A stretch of DNA of 63,577 bases, filler included, from Collodictyon triciliatum (Eukaryota), in the NCBI GenBank assembly GCA_043381765.1. It is 47 parts of 47 records of this genome, joined end to end, with 100 filler letters (N's around TTAATTAATTAA, not from the genome) between each part and the next. Parts side by side here need not be neighbours in the genome. Positions count along the whole stretch, not along the records: positions 1,360 to 2,618 come from JBHJMP010011647.1; 46 more parts are not named here. One strand, written 5' to 3'. The notes under the pieces were generated by a model that did not search any database, had not been told where the DNA came from, and was given only the letters and a program-made list of their open reading frames with translations. This document shows positions 2,082-2,135 of the stretch, one piece after another. Each line of letters begins with the position of its first letter. The first letter of the stretch is position 1. The translations under genes and the position numbers were made by a program.

Positions 2082-2135
2082 AGGTTTATTGCAAGTTTTT
2101 TTTTTCCTTTATTCGATTCAAAGGTTTATTGCAAG
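2082..2135 (-). mobile_element. 26-nt LINE 3'-end micro-insertion with perfect 14-bp TSD
   Basis: AGGTTTATTGCAAG at 2082-2095 and 2122-2135 flanks a sequence reading TTGAATCGAATAAAGG(A)10 on the minus strand, matching the LINE family A terminus at about 8437-8461. Confidence 0.9.

What the first reader, a model, noticed from the sequence alone, without database searches (positions are those of the whole stretch)
2082..2135. A family of 26-29-nt micro-retroposons: only the extreme LINE 3' terminus, each with its own TSD
Seen: four independent inserts (2096-2121, 4450-4476, 15694-15719, 58663-58691) consist only of (C)TTTGAATCGAATAAAGG plus an A tail. Each lies between 14-16-bp direct repeats, two perfect and two decayed, which suggests different ages. 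The same motif ends the longer LINE copies near 8461, 21927 and 56320. Established: TSD plus A tail indicates target-primed reverse transcription. Inference: four of seven copies truncating within a few nt of one point is not what random 5' truncation predicts. It suggests a hard RT stop, RNA cleavage at that site (host defence), or a separately mobilised ultra-short SINE-like RNA. Repeat finders would likely miss these.
Basis: partly seen in the sequence, partly recalled or inferred. Interest (0 to 1): 0.85.

Follow-up and report, generated by a model that had tools for sequence, protein, structure and literature searches.

The report
Fixed-length ultra-short LINE tail insertions
A jumping gene of the LINE type in an unidentified freshwater eukaryote has repeatedly left behind copies of only its last 17-19 letters plus an A tail, always cut at the same spot, which offers a natural handle on the old question of why such elements are usually copied incompletely.

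Summary
The window is 47 unlinked ~1.25-kb eukaryotic contigs joined by linkers. Four contigs each carry, on the - strand, a 24-29-nt insert. It consists only of (C)TTTGAATCGAATAAAGG plus an A tail and lies between its own 14-17-bp direct repeats, two perfect and two decayed. The same 17 nt end three longer copies in the window and one metagenome contig of an L1-like LINE, which has a zf-RVT ORF2 C-terminus, a ~94-nt 3' UTR and an A tail. Contigs from two public runs gave two more micro-inserts at other loci, each with its own repeats. All six start at the same C/T, within 1 nt. Smooth truncation models give 4 of 7 ends within 3 nt at P <= 0.014, unless the mean length is ~10 nt, which the long copies exclude. 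These are therefore target-primed insertions with a discrete stop 17-19 nt before the tail. The cause is open: no RNA family, no significant fold, and microhomology of only 0-2 nt. I favour loss of usable template at the edge of the RT-bound terminal block. No genome was available, so the genome-wide histogram, empty alleles and small RNA remain untested.

The parts
2082..2096 (.). m1 target-site duplication, copy next to the A tail (AGGTTTATTGCAAGT on +)
   Evidence: Perfect direct repeat with 2122-2136.
2097..2121 (-). m1 micro-insert: TTGAATCGAATAAAGG + A9-10. The CT before it is shared with the repeat, a 2-nt microhomology.
2122..2136 (.). m1 target-site duplication, copy at the 5' junction
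4436..4449 (.). m2 decayed duplication, tail side (TGTGTCGTGTAATT on +)
   Evidence: Aligned by eye with 4475-4490.
4450..4474 (-). m2 micro-insert: (T)TTTGAATCGAATAAAGG + AAAATAT
4475..4490 (.). m2 decayed duplication, 5' side (TGTGTGCTATGTAATT on +)
15678..15693 (.). m3 duplication, tail side
   Evidence: 14 of 16 match with 15720-15735.
15694..15719 (-). m3 micro-insert: TA + TTTGAATCGAATAAAGG + AAAAGAA. It has 2 extra letters at the 5' junction.
15720..15735 (.). m3 duplication, 5' side
58649..58662 (.). m4 duplication, tail side (CGCTTTGTCTCTAC on +)
   Evidence: Perfect over 14 nt, or 17 with TTT.
58663..58691 (-). m4 micro-insert: CTTTGAATCGAATATAGGG + A11
58692..58705 (.). m4 duplication, 5' side
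8323..8478 (+). Short LINE copy: 115 nt of 3' UTR (8340-8454) + A9, between perfect 17-bp repeats 8323-8339 and 8462-8478. It is nested in the RT domain of another LINE copy (QYADDTA ... KINYGKT).
21720..21927 (+). LINE 3' end, >=200 nt + A9. Its 5' side is cut by the contig end.
56320..56821 (-). LINE 3' end, >=500 nt. It holds the end of ORF2 (56419-56820, stop at 56416-56418), a ~94-nt 3' UTR and a tail of only AA. Its 5' side is cut by the contig end.

Best explanation
Shown:
- The micro-inserts are dead-on-arrival products of target-primed reverse transcription by an L1-like, poly(A)-tailed LINE family.
- The element's endonuclease nicks a T-rich/A-rich site.
- The nicked strand primes on the A tail, and a cDNA is made.
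- The cDNA is joined 14-18 bp further along the target, which duplicates that stretch.

Shown and unusual: in these copies the cDNA ends at one fixed place, the C or first U of CUUUGAAUCGAAUAAAGG. Only 17-19 nt plus the tail are inserted. There is a discrete class, not a continuum.

Inferred: the fixed end marks the upstream edge of the conserved terminal block of the 3' UTR. That block holds the AAUAAA signal and can form a weak CUUU/AAAG hairpin. I take it to be the segment held by the reverse transcriptase.

My split of the causes, given that the class is real:
- About 45%: the template simply ended there. The RNA was cut or degraded from the 5' side up to the bound protein, the enzyme ran off, and it sometimes added 1-2 untemplated letters, as in m2 and m3.
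- About 35%: the enzyme failed to pass from initiation on its recognition block to elongation, and the break was sealed by host repair.
- The remaining share goes to the rival explanations.
For: LINE origin:
- The 17 nt are identical to the end of four longer copies that carry the same 3' UTR (alignment).
- One long copy (56320) continues into an ORF that is 111/124 identical to the ORF of metagenome contig L002.
- The upstream ORF of L002 has zf-RVT at 32.4 bits against a cut-off of 27.5.

TPRT hallmarks:
- A tails are 9-11 nt in the copies with perfect repeats, and the repeats are 14-17 bp.
- The 115-nt copy has the same kind of repeat.
- Repeats start with AA or AT after T-rich or mixed flanks in 5 of 5 window copies that have repeats (read).

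Discrete class:
- 4 of 7 window copies end within 3 nt of each other.
- P(>=4 of 7 within 3 nt) is 0 to 0.0013 for uniform, log-uniform and exponential (mean 100-900) models, 0.014 for mean 30 and 0.20 for mean 10. The last is incompatible with copies of 115, >=200, >=500 and ~1030 nt.

Independent replication:
- A 239-nt contig of run X1 carries the insert between ATGTACAA... repeats.
- A 151-nt contig of run X2 carries it between ...GCCAATCCCATA repeats.
- Neither locus is in the window.
- Both start at the same C/T.

Specificity:
- An unbiased scan for exact direct repeats >=12 nt and <=400 nt apart flagged 7 rows with A tails. Four lie in the tandem array at 10600-10756. The other three are m1, the 115-nt copy and m4.
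- No TSD-flanked form shorter than 17 nt appeared in the relaxed scan.

More than one source variant gives the same end: AAAGG in 5 inserts and ATAGGG in m4.

The break lies at the border between a variable 8-10-nt linker and the conserved last 17 nt.

Background from the literature: passages of PMC10830420 state that ORF2p is highly processive and that cleavage of RNA or intermediates is the more likely cause of 5' truncation.
Against: - The sample is small: six micro-inserts and four long copies.
- No genome-wide length histogram could be made.
- The two extra cases rest on 30-letter consensus ends. Part of each repeat lies in aligned stretches whose differing letters the tool did not print.
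- Short contigs may over-represent short inserts, because long young copies break assemblies.
- Nothing points directly to the cause. Rfam gave 0 hits on the 3' end at E <= 10.
- Folds of the last 66-76 nt have z = 0.35, -0.92, 1.22 and 0.45.
- The terminal mini-hairpin is the minimum-energy fold in 4 of 5 sequences, but only at -0.3 to -3.6 kcal/mol with z from -1.5 to +0.7.
- 0 of 15 predicted pairs show compensatory change.
- The RT and endonuclease domains of this family were never seen, because the contigs are too short.
- Summed contig depth at the motif in X1 (630 against 11.2 beside it) suggests tens of copies. That is far fewer than the window's density would predict, and the tool warns that such depth is not a copy number.
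Confidence: 0.75

Rival explanations
1. A separately mobilised ultra-short RNA. A stable 3' fragment of the LINE transcript, or a tiny transcript of its own, of 17-19 nt plus poly(A), accumulates as its own RNA species. The LINE proteins copy it in full, in trans, like a minimal SINE.
For: - The size is discrete and 5 of 6 copies have identical sequence.
- The unit equals the conserved terminal block.
- The motif stretch is covered by about 40 tiny contigs with high summed depth in run X1, whose library type is only guessed to be RNA.
Against: - 17-19 nt cannot hold a known promoter.
- There is no tRNA-like head or gene (0 tRNAs in the window) and no RNA family.
- The tail variants of the micro-inserts (AAAGG, ATAGGG) mirror variation among LINE copies, as expected if each is made from a LINE RNA.
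- No small-RNA data could be examined.
- The shortest SINE named in my searches is ~100 bp (Platy-1, abstract of PMC4864456).
Confidence: 0.12
2. Ordinary random 5' truncation. The common end is chance or a result of how the copies were found.
For: - Only seven copies lie in the window.
- The motif search needs >=12 nt of LINE, so shorter ones are invisible to it.
- Short contigs may be enriched for short inserts.
Against: - P <= 0.014 for all smooth models that allow the long copies.
- Two more cases with the same end come from other data.
- Copies of 20-110 nt would assemble and be detected as easily as the micro-inserts, but only one (115 nt) is seen.
- The repeat-based scan, which does not need the motif, found no shorter forms.
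Confidence: 0.05
3. Joining hot spot. Reverse transcription goes further, but the 5' end is set by annealing between the target and the CUUUG / CAAAG stretch during second-strand joining.
For: - m1 shares 2 nt and the X1 and X2 cases share 1 nt at the junction.
- By eye, 4 of 6 duplications carry AAAG or AAAC within 11 nt of the 5' junction. The background in the window is 0.117 per 11-mer, giving nominal P = 0.002. This is post hoc and uncorrected.
Against: - m4 has no shared letters, and m2 and m3 have extra letters instead.
- AAAG in the target is the complement of the element's sequence at the junction, not a copy of it. It is therefore not the classical microhomology.
- With n = 6, the motif was chosen after looking.
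Confidence: 0.05
4. Not retroposition. The inserts are filler DNA captured at double-strand breaks, or an assembly artefact.
For: Short LINE-derived filler at repaired breaks is known (title and abstract of PMC4516963).
Against: - Every case has an A tail at one end only and a 14-18-bp duplication of the target. The length and sequence context match the 115-nt copy.
- The structure recurs in the window's assembly and in contigs of two other runs.
Confidence: 0.02

Closest known systems
Severely 5'-truncated L1 insertions (human L1 and relatives)
   Same: They carry the 3' end of the element, an A tail, a 7-20-bp target-site duplication and occasional microhomology or extra letters at the 5' junction. 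PMC10830420 (passages) says most new insertions are heavily 5' truncated for reasons not well understood. PMC2912911 (listing and abstract only) classifies 5'-truncated structures.
   Different: There the lengths are spread over hundreds of bases. Here a class of 17-19 nt ends at one nucleotide (+/-1) in 6 of 6 cases. I found no description of such a class in searches. Supplements were not seen.
Truncation hot spots of trans-mobilised RNAs (SVA; tailless retropseudogenes of tRNA and 5S rRNA)
   Same: End points are non-random in LINE-mediated copies. For SVA, the truncation points of 127 truncated copies are grouped by domain (passage of PMC10681720). For 5S rRNA, most truncations lie in loops or single-stranded regions (figure legend of PMC5322556).
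   Different: Those are broad preferences along long or structured RNAs copied in trans, and for the tailless class they are 3' truncations. Here the element's own RNA is affected, at a single site next to the tail.
SINEs that share the 3' tail of a partner LINE (stringent-type recognition)
   Same: A short terminal block of the LINE is enough to be copied by its reverse transcriptase. See the abstracts of PMC3747384 and PMC5135761 (listing only).
   Different: SINEs have a promoter-bearing head and a body and are about 100 bp or more (Platy-1 ~100 bp, abstract of PMC4864456). These units have neither.
Orphan 3' transductions and very short L1-mediated insertions in human tumours
   Same: Truncation is so early that little or none of the element is left (titles and abstracts; otherwise recalled).
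   Different: Those ends are not reported as fixed, and they carry flanking unique sequence rather than the element's own tail.

Membership tests
5'-truncated copy of a poly(A)-tailed, L1-like LINE | Sequence is the 3' terminus of a LINE | tested here: met
   17 of 17 nt are shared with the ends of four longer copies that have a common 3' UTR and ORF2 end. The related contig L002 has zf-RVT at 32.4 bits against a cut-off of 27.5.
5'-truncated copy of a poly(A)-tailed, L1-like LINE | A tail at the 3' end | tested here: met
   A9-11 in m1, m4 and the copies at 8461, 21927 and L002. The tail is interrupted or short in m2 and m3, and only AA in the copy at 56320.
5'-truncated copy of a poly(A)-tailed, L1-like LINE | Target-site duplication of about 7-20 bp directly flanking the copy | tested here: met
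   14-17 bp in 5 of 5 window copies whose two ends are both present. The directly shown part is >=8 bp in X1 and >=12 bp in X2.
5'-truncated copy of a poly(A)-tailed, L1-like LINE | Parent element encodes reverse transcriptase and an APE-type endonuclease | not testable with these tools
   Contigs end about 1 kb or less from the tail. The protein search for longer relatives found none. Relatives of 111-354 aa are metagenome fragments carrying only zf-RVT.
5'-truncated copy of a poly(A)-tailed, L1-like LINE | Truncation points scattered along the element (the usual pattern) | tested here: not met
   6 of 6 micro-inserts end within 3 nt of each other.
SINE | Head with an internal polymerase III promoter (tRNA-, 7SL- or 5S-derived) | tested here: not met
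   The unit is 17-19 nt. ARAGORN found 0 genes in the window. Rfam found 0 hits on the LINE 3' end.
SINE | 3' tail shared with a partner LINE | tested here: met
SINE | Own source genes and transcripts | not testable with these tools
   No genome is held. No run holds the organism well.
Retroelement RNA processed by a self-cleaving ribozyme (HDV-like, hammerhead) | Recognisable ribozyme next to the cleavage point | tested here: not met
   Rfam 15 gave 0 matches at E <= 10 on 56300-56821, both strands. Only described families can be found this way.

The most novel reading that the evidence does not exclude
The last 17-19 nt of this LINE are a self-sufficient retroposition module. A site-specific cut of the LINE RNA releases this block with its A tail, and it is then copied in full. 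The cut could be host-directed, for example small-RNA-guided slicing or a sequence-specific RNase, or decay halted by the bound reverse transcriptase. This would make it the shortest retroposon known, and a genomic fossil record of a defence that acts on the RNA rather than of polymerase failure.
Probability: 0.2. Interest if true: 0.85.

Novelty: new variant of a known kind. Interest (0 to 1): 0.6.

Why it matters
Why LINE copies are mostly 5' truncated is still unsettled. A recent structural paper argues from the enzyme's processivity that cleavage of the RNA or of intermediates is more likely than polymerase failure (passages of PMC10830420).

A family in which many copies stop at one nucleotide gives a defined site. 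That site can be mutated, mapped for RNA ends, and tested in vitro.

Such 25-30-nt inserts each carry an AATAAA signal and an A run. m1 sits 34 nt upstream of an ATG-started ORF on the same strand, so they may affect neighbouring genes.

They are also below the size that repeat annotation usually reports, so their number in genomes may be underestimated.

Tried and rejected
- Whole-genome search: no genome is held.
- Protein searches to name the host or the full LINE gave no hits. The third gave only metagenome fragments, best 62% identity, with one at 99% over 47% of the query.
- Atlas: the LINE C-terminus resembles zf-RVT clusters from animals. The 418-aa host ORF gave nothing usable.
- The metagenome scan with the 21-nt tail gave 4 loci. 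One is real (L002) and three are chance matches in unrelated contigs.
- The scan of prokaryote genomes gave 20 matches, none followed by an A tail, about the number chance gives for 18 nt by my estimate.
- Viral contigs gave 0 matches for two patterns.
- Sequencing runs: 24 were listed and none held more than 0.19 of the sampled words. About a fifth of the query contig is T-rich microsatellite.
- In one search, X3 and X5 do not cover the insert, and X2 does not cover the m1 locus itself.
- In one search, the X1 contig follows the window at about 98% from 1736 to 2080. It then runs on unlike for 255 nt, so it shows neither an empty nor a filled site.
- RNA structure as a stop: not better than shuffles.
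- Ribozyme or other known RNA: none.
- tRNA-like parts: none.
- Allelic empty sites inside the window: none.
- Weaker motif matches at 30680, 52192 and 53870 have no tail or repeats.
- Literature: the motif is in no paper of the library. Searches found no report of a fixed ultra-short LINE-tail class.

Full report
**What the window is.** The N runs are periodic. Every ~1356 bases there is N44-TTAATTAATTAA-N44, which separates 47 pieces of 1251-1259 bp in descending length. The window is therefore a chain of small, unlinked contigs of a fragmented assembly, about 59 kb of real sequence.

The organism is a eukaryote. Pfam finds MORN, LRR, BART, Temptin, ABC-transporter, kinase and WD40 pieces and a reverse-transcriptase fragment. 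GC is 32-41%. A metatranscriptome contig splices out an 80-nt GT..AG intron. No genome is held for it.

**The observation.** Four contigs carry the insert on the - strand. In element orientation:
- m1: ACTTGCAATAAACCT | TTGAATCGAATAAAGG A9-10 | ACTTGCAATAAACCT.
- m4: GTAGAGACAAAGCG | CTTTGAATCGAATATAGGG A11 | GTAGAGACAAAGCG.
- m3: repeats match at 14 of 16, with two extra letters (TA) before TTTG.
- m2: a repeat with one substitution and two indels, and one extra T.

The 12-mer core occurs 8 times against 0.9 expected. Seven are members and one is chance.

A scan that ignores the motif looked only for exact direct repeats of >=12 nt within 400 nt. It flagged seven rows with an A tail. Four are inside a tandem array at 10600-10756. 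The other three are m1, m4 and the 115-nt copy of the same family.

A relaxed scan (12-mers, <=1 mismatch, 3-60 nt apart, tandem arrays removed) listed 44 rows.
- It flagged m1 and m4.
- It flagged an A-rich low-complexity site at 62455.
- It flagged one unrelated candidate at 35352.
- m3 is listed but unflagged, and m2 is missed because of its indels.
- No duplication-flanked insert with fewer than 17 nt of the tail appeared.

**What it derives from.** The same 17 nt end three longer copies in the window:
- 8340-8454, 115 nt, with a perfect 17-bp duplication.
- 21720-21927, cut by the contig end.
- 56320-56821, cut by the contig end.

These three share 86-89% identity over a common 3' UTR.

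The copy at 56320 runs into an ORF whose stop lies ~94 nt before the tail. My one scan of metagenome contigs with the 21-nt tail gave four loci. One of them, L002, is a ~1030-nt 3' end of the same element with an A10 tail, and the other three are chance. Its ORF is 111/124 identical to the window's. The ORF just upstream has the zf-RVT domain above Pfam's threshold.

Together with the AATAAA, the A tail and the 14-17-bp duplications, this is an L1-like LINE. Its RT and endonuclease were not seen because all contigs are short. Relatives in the large protein collection are metagenome fragments only. A second, 36%-identical LINE family ends at 37984-38600 without this tail.

**More copies from outside.** No run holds the organism well, and shares are <=0.19. 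About a fifth of the query contig is T-rich microsatellite. Laying four runs on contig 1360-2618 was nevertheless informative.

Run X1:
- It has a 981-nt contig about 98% like 1736-2080, so a close relative is present.
- About 40 contigs of 31-32 nt match 2094-2123 without a mismatch. Summed depth is 630 against 11.2 beside it. The tool warns this is no copy number.
- A 239-nt contig carries the insert between ...GATGTACAA and ATGTACAAGCACGT.... This is a direct repeat of at least 8 nt and probably 14-15. The next six letters fall in the aligned part, where three unprinted differences are reported.

Run X2, a freshwater metagenome, has a 151-nt contig reading TGCTTTAGCCAATCCCATA | T9 CCTTTATTCGATTCAAA... 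| ...GCCAATCCCATATAAAA. This is a repeat of at least 12 nt and probably 18.

Neither flank occurs in the window. Both inserts start at the C/T of CTTTG. All six of six micro-inserts therefore share one 5' end within +/-1 nt, in three data sets.

**Is that more than chance?** I simulated the largest number of ends within any 3-nt span. For 7 copies, P(>=4) is:

| Model | P(>=4 of 7 within 3 nt) |
|---|---|
| Uniform 12-6000 | 0 |
| Exponential, mean 900 | 0 |
| Log-uniform | 0.0002 |
| Exponential, mean 100 | 0.0005 |
| Uniform 12-125 | 0.0013 |
| Exponential, mean 30 | 0.014 |
| Exponential, mean 10 | 0.20 |

For 6 of 10 copies, P is <=0.0006 except for mean 10 (0.048). A mean of 10 nt cannot give copies of 115, >=200, >=500 and ~1030 nt. 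The length distribution is therefore at least bimodal with a sharp peak.

Caveats:
- n is small.
- The window size of 3 nt was chosen after seeing the data.
- Short contigs may favour short inserts. However, copies of 20-110 nt would be equally easy to assemble and detect, and there is only one near that range.

**Mechanism.** The hallmarks show target-primed reverse transcription. The cause of the fixed stop is not shown.

Tests that gave nothing:
- Rfam gave 0 hits at E <= 10 on the 3' end.
- The consensus fold has 15 pairs and none is compensatory.
- Single folds of the last 66-76 nt have z from -0.92 to +1.22.

The 17-19 nt can pair CUUU with AAAG into a mini-hairpin. This is the minimum-energy fold in 4 of 5 sequences, but it is weak (-0.3 to -3.6 kcal/mol, z from -1.5 to +0.7). 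It is a lead only.

Junctions show 2 nt of shared sequence (m1), 1 nt (X1, X2), none (m4) or 1-2 extra letters (m2, m3). This fits run-off or end-joining, but not a microhomology-driven hot spot.

In the long copies the break coincides with the border between a variable 8-10-nt linker and the conserved terminal block. Two tail variants give the same end (AAAGG; ATAGGG in m4). The stop is therefore a property of the family, not of one master copy.

I read the block as the segment held by the enzyme. I favour loss of template upstream of it, through cleavage or through 5'-3' decay halted by the bound protein. A failed passage from initiation to elongation is the second choice. Passages of PMC10830420 argue for human L1 that RNA or intermediate cleavage is more likely than poor processivity.

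One post-hoc lead: 4 of 6 duplications carry AAAG or AAAC within 11 nt of the 5' junction, against 0.117 expected per 11-mer (nominal P = 0.002).

**Comparison with what is known.** Severe 5' truncation, orphan transductions and short L1 insertions are well known. Truncation hot spots have been described for SVA (passage) and, as 3' truncations in loops, for tailless retropseudogenes (legend). SINEs borrow LINE tails but are ~100 bp or more (abstract).

In six searches I found no report of a LINE whose copies form a discrete 17-19-nt class. Supplements could not be read. I therefore rate it a new variant of a known kind.

**Verdict.** Interest is 0.6. The finding is a clean, reproducible oddity with a direct experimental handle. 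It currently rests on ten copies and an unidentified organism.

Noticed in passing
window, all N runs (e.g. 1260-1359, 2619-2718): The window is a chain of 47 contigs of 1251-1259 bp in descending length, joined by N44-TTAATTAATTAA-N44 linkers. Distances between features in different pieces mean nothing.
   Followed up: yes
window 8152-9271 (+): The 115-nt LINE copy is nested in the reverse-transcriptase domain of another LINE copy. The host ORF reads ...LLQYADDTAFIL...GGKINYGKT before the insert and continues in the same codon phase after it. Whether the host belongs to the same family is unknown.
   Followed up: partly
window 1435-1514 (- strand gene in 1360-1700): A lake metatranscriptome contig (X5) joins 1434 to 1515, skipping 80 nt with CT..AC on + (GT..AG on -). 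This is a spliced intron of an expressed gene, and a sign that the organism or a close relative lives in fresh water. Freshwater metagenome contigs X2 and X3 match 1364-1724 at about 99%.
   Followed up: no
window 1890-2136 (-): m1 lies 34 nt upstream of the ATG (2063-2061) of a 56-codon ORF on the same strand. From recall, the ORF looks like the N-terminus of a PWP1-type WD-repeat protein. The related X1 contig diverges from the window at 2080, 2 nt before the duplication starts.
   Followed up: partly
window 35352-35401: A direct repeat TATCAC[C/G]CGTCCC (12 of 13) flanks T6 plus 18 nt, a structure like the micro-inserts but with a different sequence. It may be a second source or chance. The 16-mer has only weak matches elsewhere.
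   Followed up: partly
window 37984-38600 (+): The 3' end of a second LINE family. Its ORF2 C-terminus is 36% identical to the first family (weak zf-RVT hit) and it has a different 3' UTR and A-rich end. An RVT_1 fragment lies in the neighbouring contig at 37533-37883.
   Followed up: no
window 54221-55468 (+) and 59625-60872 (-): Two contigs are single uninterrupted ORFs. One is a 416-aa array of near-identical WD40 repeats. The other is a 416-aa ORF with no Pfam match. The ORF at 13583-14836 likewise has no relatives.
   Followed up: no
window 56311-56321: The long copy at 56320 has a tail of only AA, followed by T9 in element orientation, unlike the A9-11 of the other young copies.
   Followed up: no
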